64,000 nt of DNA, from sequence record OR544956; one strand, given 5' to 3'. The stretch comes from Escherichia phage vB_EcoM_EP57. Position 1 is the first letter of the stretch, and each line of letters starts with the position of its first letter. The notes beneath the pieces were generated by a model that ran no database searches, had not been told where the DNA came from, and saw nothing but the letters and a program-made list of their open reading frames with translations. Positions 17,982 through 23,515 of the stretch are shown piece after piece. Made by a program: the position numbers and the translations under genes.

Positions 17982-20057
17982 TTATCTTTTACGGACACTA
18001 TACGGTTGGTGAAATCCGCTGTTCATTCTACTGTATCCTGTAGGAGCATTTGTTGTTGTAGGGATAGCTACTGCTTTGAAAGTATTCTCTTTTGACAGAG
18101 TATTAAAACAAGAGGCAGCAGCATCGGGAATGTCATCTTTAATAGTGGCTGTAGATCTTTCACCATTGAAAGATTCCAATTCTTTATAAAAGTGGGTTAA
18201 AGTCTCCACATTAGGGAAAGAATCTTCAACAATATAAACAAAACCGTTTTGACACGCACTACTAAAAGGCATGAAACGCTGAAGCTTTTTCTTGTTACCT
18301 GGCATAGCATCTGGTTTAACAACAAAACCCTCTAGAATAAGTTTCTTTGCAGACTCTGTGTATTCTATTGTCCCAGCACCAGATGGGTCTTTAGGAAGCA
18401 CTACTGTAACTTCTGGTCCATCAATCTTACATTGATTTAGAATCAGGTTATCCCTTTCCCCAGGTAGTCTTCGAAACCTTCCGAAAATTTTACTTTTCTC
18501 ATCCACAGCATCATAATCATAGTCGCCAAAGATGTAGATATTACCATCTTGGTCTTTACCCATTTTGACAGATGTTGTATAGTCTGGATAACGGTAAGTT
18601 TCTGTAGGAACTGAAACAGCTTTATCCCATGCTCGCATTAGTTTAAGATTGTTAGGAACATCTTTATAAGATATTTTATGTAACCATTCACGTTGAAAGA
18701 AAGATTCTTTCTGGATACGTGCAAACCAACAACCGTCCAGAAGCTGTGCTCTTTTGATCGCTGTTTGTGATTTAAGCTGTGCTAAGTAATTAGGGTTAAG
18801 CCTAATGAGTTCTGGGTTATCAAATATTGTCCCACCAATAAATACGAAAGTTTGTGGTTCAATAACAACTGTCTCCCCTGTATTAGGGTTTTCCATGAAA
18901 CAGTTTTCTGGATATTTTTCTTTCAGTTCTTCAGGTGTGTCAGCAAAAACAGGTTCATCGTTAACAATGATGAAATATTTTTGTTTACCACACATATCTT
19001 CTCTAGGATAACCACCCTCATCAAGATAAGGTAACACCCAATTCAAAACCCAACTATCTGCGTCAGGGTTACATGTGCACAACATGAAACTTGTTTCTGA
19101 CTCTGAACGCATACGTCCCAGAAGATAGAGCATTTCATATTGTGTGAAGTGGGTTAACTCGTCAAAACCTACCATTGAATACTGTGTACCCTGATGGTTT
19201 GTTTCTGCTGTTACGTTATCATTTTCCAAATGGTCAAATTTGAGGGTTCCGCCACCAGTGGCTTCAAAAATGATATCCATTGTACTTTCTTTTACGTGTG
19301 GTTGTAAAGGAAGATACAAACGTTTTGCTTCTGTAAACAGACCACCTGGTTTACGGTGAGCAGTGGTGTTCTTACGGAAAAGTATTCCACCAAACAAAGG
19401 GTCTTTGTAGGCGTATTTTAAAGCTTTCAGCAATAGCAGACGAGACTTGCCGCTATTCCCAGTAACGAAGCAGTGATCGCCACGTCTAAAGACAATATAG
19501 CTGCTTGGAGTCTCAAAACAATATTTCTTATCATCTGTTGAAATAACCTCGTGTATTTTTAAGTAAGTGCTCTTTTTACCAGGTATGTTAAAAGGAACAC
19601 GTTTACCGAATGGATTTTCTACATAACCTTGCAGGGGTTTTCCTATTTGCTGTAATGCAATAAGATCTCCTACAAGAATCTCGAAATGTTTCTTTGATTT
19701 CTTTTTCTTATAGAATACAAAACGGTGTTCCATACTAAGTTCTTGGAATAATCCTACACCATTTGTTATTCTGTATAGGTTATCTCCATTTAAATCGTAT
19801 TCTACAAAATAAGGTGTTACCAATTCTAAACGCTTATTCTTAGGATTGTATTGGTAAATATCCTCTCCCGAATATTCACTAATCTGCCTCCAACCATCTT
19901 TTGTAAGATATTCCGTTTCAGCAGAAACACATCCAGCGGCACCACCATAAATCATAACCTCTGGCATTAAATCCATTGCAAGAGTCTGTTTACCTGGTTG
20001 AGCCTTTACTTCAATATCTACTCCAGCTAAACTACCTGCTGCCTTTTTCTTTGCCAC
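17982..20057 (-). CDS. terL: terminase large subunit (intein-containing precursor)
   Basis: Walker A split as GGAAG / SGKS around insert; Walker B MVGFDE; CTCNPDAD motif; 691 aa = ~532-aa terminase + 159-aa insert. Confidence 0.85.
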   Translation of the reverse strand: MAKKKAAGSLAGVDIEVKAQPGKQTLAMDLMPEVMIYGGAAGCVSAETEYLTKDGWRQISEYSGEDIYQYNPKNKRLELVTPYFVEYDLNGDNLYRITNGVGLFQELSMEHRFVFYKKKKSKKHFEILVGDLIALQQIGKPLQGYVENPFGKRVPFNIPGKKSTYLKIHEVISTDDKKYCFETPSSYIVFRRGDHCFVTGNSGKSRLLLLKALKYAYKDPLFGGILFRKNTTAHRKPGGLFTEAKRLYLPLQPHVKESTMDIIFEATGGGTLKFDHLENDNVTAETNHQGTQYSMVGFDELTHFTQYEMLYLLGRMRSESETSFMLCTCNPDADSWVLNWVLPYLDEGGYPREDMCGKQKYFIIVNDEPVFADTPEELKEKYPENCFMENPNTGETVVIEPQTFVFIGGTIFDNPELIRLNPNYLAQLKSQTAIKRAQLLDGCWFARIQKESFFQREWLHKISYKDVPNNLKLMRAWDKAVSVPTETYRYPDYTTSVKMGKDQDGNIYIFGDYDYDAVDEKSKIFGRFRRLPGERDNLILNQCKIDGPEVTVVLPKDPSGAGTIEYTESAKKLILEGFVVKPDAMPGNKKKLQRFMPFSSACQNGFVYIVEDSFPNVETLTHFYKELESFNGERSTATIKDDIPDAAASCFNTLSKENTFKAVAIPTTTNAPTGYSRMNSGFHQPYSVRKR
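19455..19931 (-). mobile_element. mini-intein (159 aa) inserted in the terminase P-loop
   Basis: starts CVSAETEYLT, internal SMEHRF (TxxH-like block), ends FVTGN followed by Ser; excision restores GGAAGSGKS. Confidence 0.7.
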
Positions 20058-20060
20058 TCC

Positions 20061-20405
20061 TTATTCAGCAATAATACCTTTTTCTTGCAGTGTTTTAATA
20101 TATGTTTGTAAACCTAGAACCTTTCGTCTATCTTGCTCCCAAAGAGCATTGTTTTGAGTTTGGTTGTTAACAACTTCAGATCTACTAACCCCTTTTGCAA
20201 TTTGATTTTTAGTGTATGGCACAGGTGTCGATACTTTATCCATCAAGTCCGAATCTGGACCTTTAACCTTTTCTATGGCTACAGCCTTACACTCATCAAT
20301 AAGAACTGGGGAAACTTTTGTTGATGATGAACAACCCGTCATCATTAGGGGCAAAGCAAGACATACTGCCAGAATTAGTTTTTGCATAATTCGTTGTATC
20401 CTCAT
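20061..20405 (-). CDS. o-spanin-like outer-membrane lipoprotein
   Basis: signal peptide with lipobox-like LMMTGC; overlaps the 3' part of the preceding gene out of frame (Rz/Rz1 arrangement). Confidence 0.45.
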   Translation of the reverse strand: MRIQRIMQKLILAVCLALPLMMTGCSSSTKVSPVLIDECKAVAIEKVKGPDSDLMDKVSTPVPYTKNQIAKGVSRSEVVNNQTQNNALWEQDRRKVLGLQTYIKTLQEKGIIAE

Positions 20406-20688
20406 TGATCGTTTGTTTCTTCTTCTCTAAATCTGCTTTTAATTGTGCATTGTTTTTAGACAAGTTGTTTATTTGAGTATTTAATAATGCTCTTTCTTCA
20501 TCTGCTCTTTTTTGAAGAACATCAAAATCTTGTTTTGCTTTTGCTTGGGCTGCTTGATATACTTGCGTTTGATAGGCAACACCATCTTTGTAGCCAGACT
20601 CACGTATCTTGTTATAAGCAAACATTCCGGCAAGAATAAGAACAACAATTAAAACAAAACTTAATACAGTTTTAGTCTTTAGATTCAT
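20296..20688 (-). CDS. i-spanin-like protein
   Basis: 130 aa, N-terminal transmembrane helix then charged coiled-coil region. Confidence 0.45.
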   Translation of the reverse strand: MNLKTKTVLSFVLIVVLILAGMFAYNKIRESGYKDGVAYQTQVYQAAQAKAKQDFDVLQKRADEERALLNTQINNLSKNNAQLKADLEKKKQTINEDTTNYAKTNSGSMSCFAPNDDGLFIINKSFPSSY

Positions 20689-21553: not shown

Positions 21554-21632
21554 TGGAGGCGGGAATTGGATTTGAACCAATGATCTCCAGCATATGAAAC
21601 TGGCGAGGACGACCAGACTCCTCTATCCCGCT
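21554..21632 (-). tRNA. tRNA-Met (anticodon CAT), CCA encoded
   Basis: hand-folded cloverleaf; T arm ATTGG-TTCAAAT-CCAAT; anticodon loop TTCATAT; A1:C72 mismatch noted. Confidence 0.5.
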
Positions 21633-21638
21633 ATTATG

Positions 21639-21710
21639 TATCCCGTGCTGGATTCGAACCAGCATCACAATAAGCTGTGGAACTCTTATCCTGTAAGTCT
21701 AACGGGAAAC
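21639..21710 (-). tRNA. tRNA-like element, anticodon not resolved (possible pseudo-tRNA)
   Basis: T arm GCTGG-TTCGAAT-CCAGC and acceptor-like ends, but no canonical anticodon arm found by eye. Confidence 0.25.
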
Positions 21711-21784
21711 TGGTTGTTTCGACAAGAATCGAACTTGTGTCTCACGATTATCAGTCGTGGGTTCTACCATTGAACTACGAAACA
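21711..21784 (-). tRNA. tRNA-Ile (anticodon GAT), CCA encoded
   Basis: acceptor TGTTTCG/CGAAACA, D arm GTTC-AATGGTA-GAAC, anticodon arm CACGA-CTGATAA-TCGTG. Confidence 0.65.
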
Positions 21785-21790
21785 TTAAAT

Positions 21791-21867
21791 TGGTCGGAAT
21801 TGCAGGATTCGAACCTGCGACCCTACGCTCCCAAAGCGTATGCTCTACCAAACTGAGCTAAATTCCG
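21791..21867 (-). tRNA. tRNA-Pro (anticodon TGG), CCA encoded
   Basis: acceptor CGGAATT/AATTCCG, D arm GCTC-AGTTTGGTA-GAGC, anticodon arm TACGC-TTTGGGA-GCGTA. Confidence 0.65.
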
Positions 21868-21960
21868 TCATAACATTCTAAAGGTACACCGCAAAAGAAA
21901 GTGTTCGGCGGCTCCTCGTTTTTAACTTCACACTTGAGGTAGTGACTCACCTTTGTTATA

Positions 21961-22036
21961 TGGCTGGTCTGTCTGGATTTGAACCAAACCTACGACAGTC
22001 AAAGTGTCGTGTGCTACCGGACTACACTACAAACCA
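21961..22036 (-). tRNA. tRNA-Gln (anticodon TTG), CCA encoded
   Basis: anticodon arm CGACA-CTTTGAC-TGTCG; T loop TTCAAAT; acceptor pairs with one G-U. Confidence 0.55.
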
Positions 22037-22134
22037 ATAAATCATTTAATGAAGGGCAACCAGAAGAGGTGTGAGAGAAGGAGAAAACCATGAGTAAAAG
22101 AGAAAGTTTTCTGGCAACCCTTTATTAAATAATT

Positions 22135-22208
22135 TGGAGCGTTCTACGAGGATCGAACTCGTGCCGCCGACTTGGAAGGACGGAATGCTACCGCTACACC
22201 AAGAACGC
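22135..22208 (-). tRNA. tRNA-Gly (anticodon TCC), CCA encoded
   Basis: acceptor GCGTTCT/AGAACGC; anticodon loop CTTCCAA; T arm ACGAG-TTCGATC-CTCGT. Confidence 0.5.
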
Positions 22209-22219
22209 CCTACATCTTT

Positions 22220-22249
22220 ACTATACTACATTTTACTATTGGTTGTCAA
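22220..22249 (-). promoter_or_regulatory. promoter with AACTATTGACAA element, start site just upstream of the tRNA at 22208
   Basis: minus strand TTGACA - 18 nt - TATAGT. Confidence 0.45.
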
Positions 22250-22438
22250 TAGTTTTATTGAGTGGGACAGTGACGAGTATCCCGTTGGGTGACTAGCCCT
22301 ACGTTCGGTAAGCTAACTTAAAATAATACAAAACCAAAGTCAAATATTATTCTTCGTTGCTGTCGATGGGAGAGCCGCTTCTCATTTTGCCCCATCCAAC
22401 CCTACTCCGGTCAAGTTTCGGGTAACTCTTTTTGTGTG

Positions 22439-22527
22439 ATCAACACAATACTAAGAACACTGTCTTTCGAACAGACCTTGTGCACAGGATACGACGATCA
22501 ATCACAGTGCTCTTAATGTTGTGTTGG
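22439..22527 (-). ncRNA. tRNA-like degenerate element (GTTCGAA loop, 8-bp terminal pairing), not a canonical tRNA
   Basis: ends CAACACAA/TTGTGTTG pair; internal hairpin with TTCGAA loop; no cloverleaf could be completed. Confidence 0.2.
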
Positions 22528-22599
22528 TGCTCCCACACTGAATCGAACAGAGATCCACGGATTACAAAACCGTTGTAATAGCCATTATACTATAGGAGC
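22525..22599 (-). tRNA. tRNA-Thr (anticodon TGT), CCA encoded
   Basis: acceptor GCTCCTA/TGGGAGC (one G-U); anticodon loop TTTGTAA. Confidence 0.45.
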
Positions 22600-22605
22600 A
22601 AAGCT

Positions 22606-22682
22606 GGGACTCGGCAGGATTCGATACCTGCAATTCCAGAAGCCTCTTGGCGACTGGGGGTTTACCTTAACTCTACAAGTCC
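22606..22682 (-). tRNA. tRNA, anticodon not resolved by eye
   Basis: acceptor GGACTTG/CGAGTCC pairs; T-arm-like GCAGG-TATCGAAT-CCTGC with 8-nt loop. Confidence 0.3.
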
Positions 22683-22689
22683 ATAATTC

Positions 22690-22775
22690 TGGCGATGAGT
22701 ATAGGATTTGAACCTATATCGTTCTTTCGAACACGGATTAACAGTCCGCCGCTTAAACCATTCAGCCAACTCATC
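22690..22775 (-). tRNA. class II (long variable arm) tRNA with apparent anticodon GTT
   Basis: acceptor GATGAGT/ACTCATC; anticodon arm GCGGA-CTGTTAA-TCCGT; variable arm GTTC-GAAA-GAAC; T arm ATAGG-TTCAAAT-CCTAT. Confidence 0.45.
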
Positions 22776-22781
22776 TTAATT

Positions 22782-22869
22782 TGGTGGTGAGTGATGGAGT
22801 TGAACCACCCGAATCGCAATGATAACAGATTTACAGTCTGCCCCGCTACCCCTACGGAATTAACTCACC
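22782..22869 (-). tRNA. tRNA-Tyr (anticodon GTA), class II, CCA encoded
   Basis: acceptor GGTGAGT/ACTCACC; anticodon arm GCAGA-CTGTAAA-TCTGT; T arm GGTGG-TTCAACT-CCATC. Confidence 0.6.
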
Positions 22870-22947
22870 TAAATACTAATATTTAAATTCTTTTTAAAAT
22901 AGCCAGTGTTCACACCACTAACTATGTAAGCCATATTAAAAAGAACT

Positions 22948-23033
22948 TGGCGGTAGATGTAGGACTCGAACCTACACGCCGTTTCCGACTACAGTTTAGC
23001 AAACTGTCGTGGCTACCATTTCACCAATCTACC
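22948..23033 (-). tRNA. tRNA-Ser (anticodon GCT), class II, CCA encoded
   Basis: acceptor GGTAGAT/ATCTACC; anticodon arm ACAGT-TTGCTAA-ACTGT; long variable arm. Confidence 0.6.
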
Positions 23034-23038
23034 TAATC

Positions 23039-23129
23039 TGGCGGAAGGAGGGAGAGTCGAACTCCCAAGGCTCTTTCAAGCTCGGCGGTTTTCAAGACCG
23101 TTTTCGTCGCCACGTCGATTTGCCCTTCC
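23039..23129 (-). tRNA. tRNA-Ser (anticodon TGA), class II, CCA encoded
   Basis: acceptor GGAAGGG/TCCTTCC; anticodon loop CTTGAAA; long variable arm; T arm GGGAG-TTCGACT-CTCCC. Confidence 0.5.
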
Positions 23130-23138
23130 ATACTTATA

Positions 23139-23167
23139 ATCTAACATAAAATAATGTTTGTTGTCAA
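23139..23167 (-). promoter_or_regulatory. promoter with AACTATTGACAA element, start site at the tRNA-Ser 5' end
   Basis: minus strand TTGACA - 17 nt - TTAGAT. Confidence 0.4.
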
Positions 23168-23363
23168 TAGTTTTTTAAAACATTTTACCATGAATGGTGA
23201 CTCCACCAACCCCCGTTCTCCACGAACGGTGCTCTTCGAGCATTTATGTCTTCTAATATAACCGTGGCCTTTGTTTATAATGTCTGACATACTTGCCTCA
23301 TTCTCTGCCACCATGATCAGTAGTGGGTTCAAATTACTTGAGCTAATTCATGTTAAAATGTTC

Positions 23364-23438
23364 TGGTGTCTTTACAAGGAATCGAACCTTGACTAAGAGT
23401 TTAGAAGACTCCTGTGCTATCCATTACACCATAAAGAC
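23364..23438 (-). tRNA. tRNA-Arg (anticodon TCT), CCA encoded
   Basis: acceptor GTCTTTA/TAAAGAC; anticodon arm GGAGT-CTTCTAA-ACTCT; T arm CAAGG-TTCGATT-CCTTG. Confidence 0.6.
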
Positions 23439-23440
23439 GT

Positions 23441-23515
23441 TGGTGGCCCTGGCTGGTTTCGATCCAGCTACCTATCGGTTATGAGCCGACAGCTCTCCCA
23501 TTGAGCTACAGGGCC
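23441..23515 (-). tRNA. tRNA-Met (anticodon CAT; could be fMet or Ile2), CCA encoded
   Basis: acceptor GGCCCTG/CAGGGCC; D arm GCTC-AATGGGA-GAGC; anticodon arm GTCGG-CTCATAA-CCGAT. Confidence 0.6.

What the first reader, a model, noticed from the sequence alone, without database searches (positions are those of the whole stretch)
19455..19931. Mini-intein splitting the terminase large subunit Walker A motif
The terminase ORF is ~160 aa longer than expected, and the extra block begins with Cys (CVSAETEY), has an internal SMEHRF block and ends ...VTGN followed by Ser. Removing it joins GGAAG to SGKS to give a canonical P-loop. Packaging would then depend on protein splicing.
Basis: partly seen in the sequence, partly recalled or inferred. 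Interest (0 to 1): 0.6.

Follow-up and report, generated by a model that had tools for sequence, protein, structure and literature searches.

The report
Mini-intein inside phage terminase P-loop
The DNA-packaging motor gene of this phAPEC8-like coliphage is interrupted, in the middle of its ATP-binding loop, by a 159-residue self-splicing protein element (a mini-intein) that almost certainly has to cut itself out before the motor can work; this is a known kind of element in a typical place, but public records of these phages do not annotate it.

Summary
Window 19455-19931 encodes 159 residues (C1…S66-M-E-H69…Y137-C138…T157-G158-N159, then Ser). They sit between GGAAG and SGKS of the large terminase (TerL, 17982-20057). 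Removing them gives a 532-aa TerL that aligns without a gap across the junction to insert-free TerLs: 4MG (IIGGAAGSGKSYLL) and Aeromonas phage 2L372X (MIYGGAAGSGKSRLLL).

The element is under purifying selection as strong as on the extein (dN/dS about 0.06). It is present in every close relative examined and has no homing endonuclease.

It belongs to an atypical but large intein family: Cys1, Cys at block F position 4, and a Gly-Asn end with no penultimate His.

Verdict: a real intein, a new and unannotated member of a known kind. Splicing itself was not shown here, and the splicing class (1 versus 3-like) remains open.

The parts
17982..20057 (-). TerL precursor ORF: 691 codons plus stop, 78.7 kDa. 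The start is the GTG at 20057, 3 nt after the stop codon of the upstream ORF.
   Evidence: ORF list and translation. Pfam Terminase_6N at 5e-17 and PHROG 979 at 1e-216. 99.7% DNA identity to the TerL of Escherichia phage tuntematon. Masses.
19932..20057 (-). N-extein: 42 aa ending ...MIYGGAAG, which is the first half of the Walker A motif (G39-A-A-G42 = 19932-19943).
   Evidence: The N-extein is conserved in PaulScherrer TerL (81% identity) and aligns to 4MG TerL from residue 23.
19455..19931 (-). Mini-intein: 159 aa, 18.6 kDa, pI 8.6, a single HINT domain with no homing endonuclease.
17982..19454 (-). C-extein: 490 aa plus stop. It begins SGKSRLLL, the second half of Walker A (S-G-K-S = 19443-19454), followed by the rest of the ATPase and the nuclease domain.
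19929..19931 (-). Cys1 codon (TGT): block A nucleophile for the N-S acyl shift.
   Evidence: Invariant in 109 of 109 family members.
19722..19736 (-). Block B: S66-M-E-H69-R70 (B:7, B:10, B:11).
   Evidence: His69 is invariant in alignments A1 and A2. S-x-x-H-R matches S65, H68 and R69 of the AceL NrdHF intein, whose roles were shown by mutagenesis (PMC7891396).
19518..19523 (-). Block F: Y137-C138. Cys sits at position F:4, which is 21 residues before the terminal Asn.
   Evidence: Cys138 is invariant in A1 and A2. Cys is at this position in 105 of 109 family members.
19455..19463 (-). Block G: T157-G158-N159. The terminal Asn is the residue that cyclises. The penultimate residue is Gly, not His.
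   Evidence: In the family, Gly is penultimate in 108 of 109 and Asn is terminal in 109 of 109.
19452..19454 (-). Ser+1 codon (AGC): C-extein nucleophile, and also position x4 of the restored Walker A motif.
   Evidence: In the family, +1 is Ser in 69, Cys in 28 and Thr in 12 of 109. Insert-free 4MG and 2L372X have Ser at this position.
19689..19709 (-). Conserved basic loop K75-K-K-K-S-K-K81 between two predicted strands of the intein. Its role is unknown.

Best explanation
The window comes from a Phapecoctavirus (a phAPEC8-like E. coli myovirus). Its single large-terminase gene is translated as a 78.7-kDa precursor. In that precursor, a 159-aa mini-intein separates G-A-A-G from S-G-K-S of the Walker A P-loop.

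Proposed mechanism (inferred, not shown):
1. The intein folds into a HINT domain that brings the two junctions together.
2. Cys1 makes a thioester with Gly42 of the N-extein, assisted by block B residues Ser66 and His69.
3. The N-extein is passed to the hydroxyl of Ser+1.
4. Asn159 cyclises and releases the intein. Arg70 (B:11) probably substitutes for the missing penultimate His, as its counterpart does in the AceL NrdHF intein.
5. An O-N shift gives a native Gly-Ser peptide bond.

The products would be a 60.1-kDa TerL with an intact GAAGSGKS P-loop and a free 18.6-kDa intein. Splicing is most likely fast and constitutive.

The element has lost its homing endonuclease. It is no longer mobile, is inherited vertically in Stephanstirmvirinae, and is kept functional because TerL is essential.

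Shown here: the anatomy, the homology, the predicted fold, the empty-site homologues and the purifying selection. Inferred: that splicing occurs, its chemistry, and that packaging depends on it.
For: Exact, in-frame insertion:
- The boundaries are confirmed at base level.
- The spliced sequence aligns gap-free across the junction to intein-free 4MG TerL (E=3e-113; IYGGAAGSGKSRLL against IIGGAAGSGKSYLL).
- It also aligns in one piece from residue 17 to Salmonella phage Si3 TerL.
- Aeromonas phage 2L372X has the identical empty site, MIYGGAAGSGKSRLLL.

Homology to inteins:
- tblastn with the block hits insertions that start at their Cys1 in RNR, RtcB, a primase/helicase, a DNA polymerase and other TerLs.
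- Family profiles hit PDB 6ZGQ (AceL NrdHF intein) at E=5e-10 and 1e-12, and other solved inteins more weakly.
- The profile retrieves at least 200 proteins. Many of them carry Pfam Intein_splicing, LAGLIDADG_3 or Hom_end domains.

Catalytic positions:
- Invariant in the 26-sequence alignment: C1, E7, H69, C138, G158, N159.
- Among 109 full-length family members: Cys1 in 109, terminal Asn in 109, a +1 Ser/Cys/Thr in 109.

Fold:
- The AlphaFold2 model has pLDDT 95.6 and pTM 0.87.
- Foldseek returns only HINT domains among its confident hits.

Selection and distribution:
- dN/dS is about 0.057 for the intein and 0.064 for the extein, window against PaulScherrer.
- Intein identity tracks extein identity: 87/87, 73/70, 62/65 and 57/59 %.
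- Every relative listed with at least 90% junction identity has the 474-477-nt insertion.
- Related genomes hold one TerL locus each.

No endonuclease:
- The 159 residues form a single predicted domain with no low-confidence segment.
- The block has no Pfam homing-endonuclease match.
- The neighbouring genes are spanins and the portal gene.
Against: - Nothing here shows splicing experimentally.
- Pfam and NCBIfam intein models do not match the block, and neither does a single-sequence search of the PDB.
- The canonical penultimate His (G:6) is absent, and no His follows Cys138 in block F where F:13 would lie.
- Position F:4 is Cys rather than the usual Asp, and the closest solved relative splices by the class 3 route. 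The class 1 chemistry written above is therefore the default reading, not a demonstrated one.
- dS is saturated, so the dN/dS values are rough.
- The structure is a prediction built from the family's own alignment.
Confidence: 0.88

Rival explanations
1. It is a real splicing intein, but the chemistry is class-3-like or a hybrid. In this reading, the invariant block F Cys138 attacks the N-terminal junction directly, or takes over the acyl group from Cys1, and forms a block F branched thioester before transfer to Ser+1. A related idea is that Cys1 and Cys138 form a disulfide or a metal site that makes splicing, and hence packaging, conditional.
For: - Cys at F:4 is present in 105 of 109 family members, and Thr/Ser/Cys at G:5 is near-universal.
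- The closest solved structure and sequence relative is the class 3 AceL NrdHF intein.
- The window intein shares with it S-x-x-H-R in block B, Cys at F:4, a Pro four residues after that Cys, the T-G-N end and Ser+1 (PMC7891396).
- Two family members lack Cys1 altogether: the first intein of P0018, and P0025.
- Redox control of splicing through catalytic cysteines is documented for other inteins (PMC6195587; Pab PolII in PMC8175363).
Against: - Cys1 is invariant in 109 of 109 members. That would not be expected if it were dispensable.
- Absence of an N-terminal nucleophile is the defining feature of class 3, and it is not met here.
- B:12 is Phe, not Trp.
- Cys is the second most common residue at F:4 among inteins overall (PMC4031507), so it does not by itself imply the class 3 route.
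- There is no evidence for any conditionality.
Confidence: 0.1
2. It is a degenerate, non-splicing relic of an intein that stays in the mature TerL as an extra domain.
For: - It is fixed in the whole subfamily, with no intein-free allele among close relatives.
- It lacks the penultimate His.
- It carries a conserved basic loop, KKKKSKK, that could suggest an acquired function.
Against: - It splits GxxxxGK[ST] between x3 and x4. A folded 159-residue domain at that point is hard to reconcile with a working P-loop.
- Every residue needed for splicing is invariant, whereas a relic should lose them.
- The relative AceL NrdHF has the same 'defects' and splices to completion within minutes (PMC7891396).
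Confidence: 0.03
3. It is a Hint-type autoprocessing domain that only cleaves (like a bacterial intein-like or hedgehog domain) and does not ligate. An even less likely variant is an RNA-level intervening sequence.
For: BIL and hedgehog domains are among the structural matches.
Against: - Cleavage alone would leave TerL without half of its P-loop.
- The +1 nucleophile and the terminal Asn are both present.
- The block is in frame, free of stop codons, and conserved at the protein level (dN/dS about 0.06). That argues against an intron.
Confidence: 0.01

Closest known systems
AceL NrdHF split intein (PDB 6ZGQ; Hoffmann et al. 2020, PMC7891396)
   Different: AceL NrdHF starts with Ala and splices by the class 3 route. 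It is naturally split (98 + 48 aa) around a GIY-YIG endonuclease gene, and it sits in an RNR beta subunit. The window intein starts with Cys, is contiguous (159 aa), and sits in TerL.
Mycobacteriophage TerL inteins (Kelley et al. 2016, PMC5050341)
   Same: These are inteins in the ATPase domain of phage large terminases, including the Walker A P-loop. They were shown to splice, and splicing was argued to be a prerequisite for pentamer assembly.
   Different: Their P-loop sites (TerL1-a and TerL1-b) are in Terminase_1-type TerL, at or next to the Lys|Thr bond. The window site is G|SGKS, three residues upstream, in a Terminase_6-type TerL. Their only Terminase_6 site (f) lies in the C-motif. The intein lineages and the hosts also differ.
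Inteins at the same TerL site in other phages: Escherichia phage Av-05 (241 aa), Vibrio phages PWH3a-P1 and vB_CoeS_P1 (146 aa), and metagenomic TerLs P0015/P0016 (about 324 aa)
   Same: They share the insertion point (GGxAG|SGKS) and belong to the same intein family, with C1, S-x-E-H, YCF and TGN|S.
   Different: They are only 28-44% identical to the window intein, although the exteins are 44-64% identical. The sizes differ. The roughly 324-aa forms give weak LAGLIDADG matches. None of the records examined annotates them as inteins.
Inteins of the same family in other host proteins: T5-like phage SHSML-45 RNR large subunit (304 aa) and Bacillus phage JBP901 RtcB (312 aa). A further comparison is Acinetobacter phage TaPaz gp49, a TerL with a reported intein at residues 35-388 (PMC8228797).
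   Same: The RNR and RtcB inteins share the N- and C-terminal splicing motifs and the GN|S/C end. TaPaz shows that a TerL intein near the N-terminus has been reported in the literature for a myovirus.
   Different: The RNR and RtcB inteins sit in other host proteins and sites and are large enough to hold an endonuclease-sized insert. The TaPaz sequence was not examined here, so neither its site nor its intein family is verified.

Membership tests
Intein (HINT-fold protein-splicing element) | In-frame insertion in a conserved host protein, with homologues that are contiguous across the site | tested here: met
   Insert-free homologues: 4MG IIGGAAGSGKSYLL, 2L372X MIYGGAAGSGKSRLLL and Si3 YGGAAGAGKT. 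The spliced sequence aligns gap-free across the junction.
Intein (HINT-fold protein-splicing element) | Nucleophile (Cys or Ser) as the first residue | tested here: met
   Cys1, codon TGT at 19929-19931. Invariant in 109 of 109 family members.
Intein (HINT-fold protein-splicing element) | Block B (T/S)xxH motif | tested here: met
   S66-M-E-H69, with His69 invariant.
Intein (HINT-fold protein-splicing element) | C-terminal Asn followed by Cys, Ser or Thr at +1 | tested here: met
   N159 followed by Ser. In the family, Asn is terminal in 109 of 109, and +1 is Ser in 69, Cys in 28 and Thr in 12.
Intein (HINT-fold protein-splicing element) | Penultimate His (G:6). This is common but not obligatory. 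| tested here: not met
   Gly158; Gly is penultimate in 108 of 109 family members. This is a tolerated variant: AceL NrdHF has G145 and splices, and its G145H mutant is inactive (PMC7891396). Inteins lacking this His are also cited in PMC4031507.
Intein (HINT-fold protein-splicing element) | HINT fold | tested here: met
Intein (HINT-fold protein-splicing element) | Profile similarity to recognised inteins | tested here: met
   Pfam and NCBIfam are negative. Family profiles hit 6ZGQ at E=1e-12 and the PolII, RecA, TFIIB and DnaE inteins. Family members carry Pfam PF14890, PF14528 or PF05204.
Intein (HINT-fold protein-splicing element) | Excision with ligation of the exteins | not testable with these tools
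   This needs protein-level data: a Western blot, a reporter construct, or the junction peptide detected by mass spectrometry.
Mini-intein (no homing endonuclease) | No endonuclease domain between blocks B and F | tested here: met
   The 159 aa are modelled as one HINT domain with no low-confidence segment. The block has no Pfam homing-endonuclease match. Relatives at the same site are 241-332 aa, and three of the four roughly 324-332-aa forms scanned give weak LAGLIDADG matches.
Class 1 inteins | Cys1 or Ser1, a +1 nucleophile and a terminal Asn; F:4 is usually Asp | tested here: inconclusive
   The three nucleophile positions are met. F:4 is Cys, the second most common residue at that position (PMC4031507). 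The actual reaction route cannot be read from the sequence.
Class 3 inteins | No nucleophile at position 1 | tested here: not met
   Cys1 is present and invariant in the family. For definitions of the class, see PMC2807308 and PMC7891396.
Class 3 inteins | WCT triplet: Trp at B:12, Cys at F:4, Thr at G:5 | tested here: inconclusive
   The window has F71, C138 and T157, so two of the three positions are met. The proven class 3 relative AceL NrdHF has M-C-T. The F:4 assignment rests on motif alignment and on the distance to the terminal Asn (21 residues).
Class 3 inteins | Block F branched thioester intermediate | not testable with these tools
   This needs biochemistry on C1A, C138A, N159A and S+1A mutants.
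Bacterial intein-like (BIL) domains | No +1 nucleophile, and/or cleavage without ligation, in variable non-essential proteins | tested here: not met
   Ser+1 is present and the host is an essential, conserved ATPase motif. BIL domains match only at the level of the shared fold.
T4-type large terminase (Terminase_6) | N-terminal ATPase with Walker A, and a C-terminal nuclease | tested here: met
   Pfam Terminase_6N at 5e-17 over residues 202-460. PHROG 979 at 1e-216. TIGR01630 on the C-terminal part, below its cutoff. Walker A is restored only after removal of residues 43-201.

The most novel reading that the evidence does not exclude
The window intein stands for a large, mostly phage-borne intein family that keeps both a position-1 Cys and the class-3-type block F Cys, and has no penultimate His. 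The family would then be the ancestral or intermediate state from which AceL-NrdHF-type class 3 inteins arose by loss of Cys1. In that case the TerL intein may splice by a two-thiol relay (Cys1 to Cys138 to Ser+1). Alternatively, the Cys1-Cys138 pair may be a redox- or zinc-sensitive switch that gates DNA packaging in a therapeutic coliphage.
Probability: 0.12. Interest if true: 0.6.

Novelty: new member of a known kind. Interest (0 to 1): 0.35.

Why it matters
Inteins in phage terminase P-loops are well documented, so the biology is not surprising. The practical points are these.

- **Annotation.** No record name or annotated feature returned for the phAPEC8-like and phi92-like hits mentions the element; more than 130 such genomes carry it, and the genes are simply called 'terminase large subunit' or 'hypothetical protein'. 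One 2024 paper even states that no inteins have been reported in coliphages (PMC11162368).
- **Phylogeny.** TerL is a standard marker for phage phylogeny and for inferring the packaging mechanism. An unrecognised 159-aa insertion distorts alignments and trees.
- **Detection.** Pfam and NCBIfam miss this whole intein family, so it is probably under-counted in surveys.
- **Possible tool.** It is a compact intein from a coliphage that grows in E. coli at 37 C, with Ser at +1. Its nearest characterised relative splices in minutes with almost no side reactions. It is therefore a plausible candidate for protein engineering.
- **Mechanism.** The coexistence of Cys1 and the block F Cys offers a tractable system for studying how class 1 and class 3 splicing are related.

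Tried and rejected
- **Pfam and NCBIfam scans** of the block and of the whole TerL gave no intein or Hint match at E<=1. This was not taken as evidence against an intein, because Pfam also misses the evident inteins in the RNR and RtcB relatives.
- **A single-sequence phmmer search of the PDB** gave only spurious weak hits, such as a portal protein at E=0.053.
- **A single-sequence search of the 5.8-billion-protein set** found only five near-identical fragments. A profile was needed to reach further.
- **A search for a second intein of this family in the window** found none.
- **A search for a homing endonuclease** inside or next to the gene found none; the neighbours are spanins and the portal gene.
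- **A search for an intein-free allele among close relatives** found none. The nearest empty sites are in TerLs that are 60-63% identical over the 70-aa junction region.
- **Class 3 membership** was considered and not adopted, because Cys1 is present and B:12 is not Trp.
- **The 'ordinary domain', 'cleavage only' and 'intron' readings** were rejected for the reasons given under the rivals.
- **Literature searches** for an intein in phAPEC8, phi92, Phapecoctavirus or Justusliebigvirus found no report. The phi92 genome paper and Tori & Perler 2011 are not in the held library.
- **Model coordinates** are not exposed to scripts, so the Cys1-Cys138-Asn159 distances could not be measured.
Full report
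**Origin and context.** The TerL gene in the window is 99.7% identical in DNA to that of Escherichia phage tuntematon and other Phapecoctavirus genomes (Stephanstirmvirinae, phAPEC8-like myoviruses). On the minus strand the local gene order is: a cluster of ten tRNA genes, two spanin ORFs, TerL, the portal gene and then head genes. Related genomes hold a single TerL locus each.

**Observation.** The ORF 17982..20057 (-) encodes 691 aa. The reverse complement of 19455-19931 translates, in the TerL frame and without a stop, to 159 aa: CVSAETEY...SMEHRF...KYCFETPSSYIVFRRGDHCFVTGN. At the DNA level the boundaries read gct gga | TGT ... ggg AAT | AGC ggc aag tct. The flanks are GGAAG and SGKS, and joining them gives GAAGSGKS, which fits GxxxxGK[ST]. 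The precursor is 78.7 kDa, the block 18.6 kDa and the joined exteins 60.1 kDa, or 532 aa.

**Is it an insertion or a domain?** The joined exteins align gap-free across the junction to the TerL of Escherichia phage 4MG (Vequintavirinae): IYGGAAGSGKSRLL against IIGGAAGSGKSYLL, E=3e-113, 40% identity. They also align in one piece from residue 17 to Felixounavirus TerLs such as Si3 (YGGAAGAGKT). A 70-aa peptide spanning the junction finds contiguous matches at 60-63% identity in Aeromonas, Klebsiella KP13-16 and Vibrio phages. Aeromonas phage 2L372X reads MIYGGAAGSGKSRLLL, so both flanks are identical to the window's. In contrast, every listed record with at least 90% identity to that peptide matches in two pieces spanning 684-687 nt, which means it carries the 474-477-nt block. 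The block is therefore fixed in Stephanstirmvirinae but absent from the nearest outgroups, at a precisely defined point.

**The same TerL site holds other forms in other phages.** Vibrio phages PWH3a-P1 and vB_CoeS_P1 have a 146-aa form. Escherichia phage Av-05 has a 241-aa form. Metagenomic TerLs hold forms of about 324-332 aa, three of which give weak LAGLIDADG matches. All of them begin with Cys, have S-x-E-H, have YC in block F, and end in TGN followed by Ser.

**Homology to inteins.**
- Pfam and NCBIfam report no Hint or intein model for the block. A single-sequence search of the PDB finds nothing credible either.
- Pfam is just as blind to the obvious inteins in the SHSML-45 RNR and the JBP901 RtcB. 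The negative result reflects weak model coverage, not absence of homology.
- The PHROG 979 TerL profile includes the block, and a PhoH-like PHROG matches its first 92 residues.
- tblastn with the block hits insertions that begin at their own Cys1 in RNR, RtcB, a primase/helicase, a DNA polymerase, a RecD-like protein and other TerLs.
- A profile of eight such elements hits the solved AceL NrdHF intein (6ZGQ) at E=5e-10. A profile of 26 mini-inteins raises that to E=1e-12 and adds the PolII (3e-4), RecA, TFIIB, DnaE and gp41-1 inteins and BIL domains at weaker scores.
- The first profile retrieves at least 200 proteins from the 5.8-billion-protein set. The hosts are TerL, RtcB, PhoH, GTP cyclohydrolase I, ThyX, MCM, RNA polymerase beta and others. 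Many carry Pfam Intein_splicing, LAGLIDADG_3 or Hom_end domains.
- In a six-frame scan of the window, the block is the only significant match (E=2.4e-66).

**Catalytic residues.** In the 26-sequence alignment, whose mean column identity is 38%, the invariant columns are C1, E7, H69, C138, G158 and N159. Counts among the 109 full-length family members are:

| Position | Residue(s) | Count out of 109 |
|---|---|---|
| 1 | Cys | 109 |
| 21 residues before the terminal Asn (block F position 4) | Cys | 105 |
| Penultimate (G:6) | Gly | 108 |
| Last (G:7) | Asn | 109 |
| +1 | Ser / Cys / Thr | 69 / 28 / 12 |

The window element has every residue needed for splicing. Its two departures from the textbook consensus are no penultimate His, and Cys rather than Asp at F:4. 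Both are features of its whole family, not signs of decay.

**Selection and history.**
- Between the window and phage PaulScherrer (Justusliebigvirus), dN/dS is about 0.057 for the intein and 0.064 for the extein. dS is saturated, so these figures are approximate.
- Across the 159-aa lineage, intein identity tracks extein identity (87/87, 73/70, 62/65 and 57/59 %). That pattern fits vertical co-inheritance.
- Against the 146-aa Vibrio-phage lineage, the intein is 28-30% identical and the extein 54-55%. This points to a separate intein lineage at the same site, or to much faster divergence.
- The intein's GC content is 34.4%, against 39.0% for the extein.
- The most economical history is this. 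An endonuclease-bearing intein of this family invaded the TerL P-loop, lost its endonuclease, and has since been carried as an immobile passenger. It must keep splicing because TerL is essential.

**Mechanism.** The default reading is class 1 splicing:
1. Cys1 undergoes an N-S acyl shift, assisted by Ser66 and His69.
2. The acyl group is transferred to Ser+1.
3. Asn159 cyclises.
4. An O-N shift completes the peptide bond.

The closest characterised relative, AceL NrdHF, shares S-x-x-H-R in block B, Cys at F:4, a Pro four residues later, the T-G-N end and Ser+1. It splices to completion with a half-time of about 4 min at 37 C. In that intein the block B Arg partly compensates for the missing His, and introducing a penultimate His abolishes activity (PMC7891396). 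This makes it credible that the window intein is active despite lacking both His residues.

AceL NrdHF begins with Ala and uses the block F Cys as the first nucleophile, which is the class 3 route. The window intein, and 109 of 109 of its full-length relatives, begin with Cys. Class 3 is defined by the absence of that nucleophile (PMC2807308; PMC7891396), and Cys is the second most common residue at F:4 in inteins generally (PMC4031507). I therefore file the element as class 1 by sequence, and I leave open a relay or class-3-like contribution from Cys138. Two family members, the first intein of P0018 and P0025, lack Cys1, which shows that the family straddles the boundary between the classes.

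**Comparison with what is known.** Terminases are a classic intein host and P-loops a classic site (PMC4760082). Mycobacteriophage TerL inteins have been shown to splice, and their P-loop sites lie at or next to the Lys|Thr bond of Terminase_1-type TerL (PMC5050341). The window site, G|SGKS, is three residues upstream and lies in a Terminase_6-type TerL. An intein at residues 35-388 of the TerL of Acinetobacter phage TaPaz has been reported (PMC8228797). For phAPEC8-like and phi92-like phages I found no annotation in the GenBank or RefSeq records, in the cluster names, or in the searchable literature. One paper states that no inteins have been reported in coliphages (PMC11162368).

**Verdict.** This is a real, previously unannotated member of a known kind of element, at a typical kind of site. 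It belongs to an atypical family (Cys1, Cys at F:4, a Gly-Asn end) that standard domain libraries miss. Splicing itself, the dependence of packaging on it, and the splicing class remain to be shown experimentally.

Noticed in passing
P0018 (metagenomic protein, 529 aa), residues about 53-370 and 371-509: Two inteins of this family lie back to back in a fragment that looks like a family-A DNA polymerase. The first is endonuclease-sized, has no Cys at position 1 (class-3-like) and ends ...FITGN. It is followed immediately by Cys1 of a second, 139-aa mini-intein that ends ...FVSGN|T. P0025 also starts with Pro instead of Cys.
   Followed up: partly
window 19689-19709 (-), intein residues 75-81: A lysine-rich loop, KKKKSKK, is conserved (KKKKSKK, or KKKSKK in two members) in all 159-aa-type TerL mini-inteins, down to 56% identity. 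It lies between two predicted strands, near the point where larger relatives carry their extra (endonuclease-sized) segment. Its role is unknown; it might be a remnant of DNA binding. At the DNA level it is an A-rich run.
   Followed up: no
window 20055-20063 (-): The TerL GTG start lies 3 nt after the TAA stop of the upstream ORF (20061-20405, 114 aa), in the same frame (TAA GGA GTG). An AAGGA sequence directly abuts the GTG. Some public records instead start TerL at Met28, giving 664 aa. The 27 extra residues are conserved in another genus, so the long form, perhaps made by translational coupling, seems real.
   Followed up: partly
window 20061-20688 (-): Two overlapping small ORFs lie directly upstream of TerL (20296-20688, 130 aa; 20061-20405, 114 aa). 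Judging by the annotation of related phages, these are a partly overlapping i-spanin/o-spanin pair.
   Followed up: no
window 21554-23515 (-): A cluster of ten tRNA genes lies upstream of the packaging module: Met x2, Ile, Pro, Gln, Gly, Thr, Asn, Ser and Arg.
   Followed up: no
L010 (Aeromonas phage 2L372X, NC_048770.1 65508-66317): This TerL is intein-free at the P-loop, but its annotated CDS ends after 133 aa at an in-frame stop. The gene is probably interrupted further downstream by another element, such as an intron or a homing-endonuclease insertion. TerL genes split by HNH-endonuclease introns also turned up among the rV5-like hits (for example phage TH18).
   Followed up: no
L007 (Escherichia phage Av-05, KM190144.1): The annotated TerL is only 376 aa and ends soon after a 241-aa intein at the same P-loop site. 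The remainder of the gene seems to lie beyond the annotated CDS, or the record is frameshifted or otherwise interrupted.
   Followed up: no
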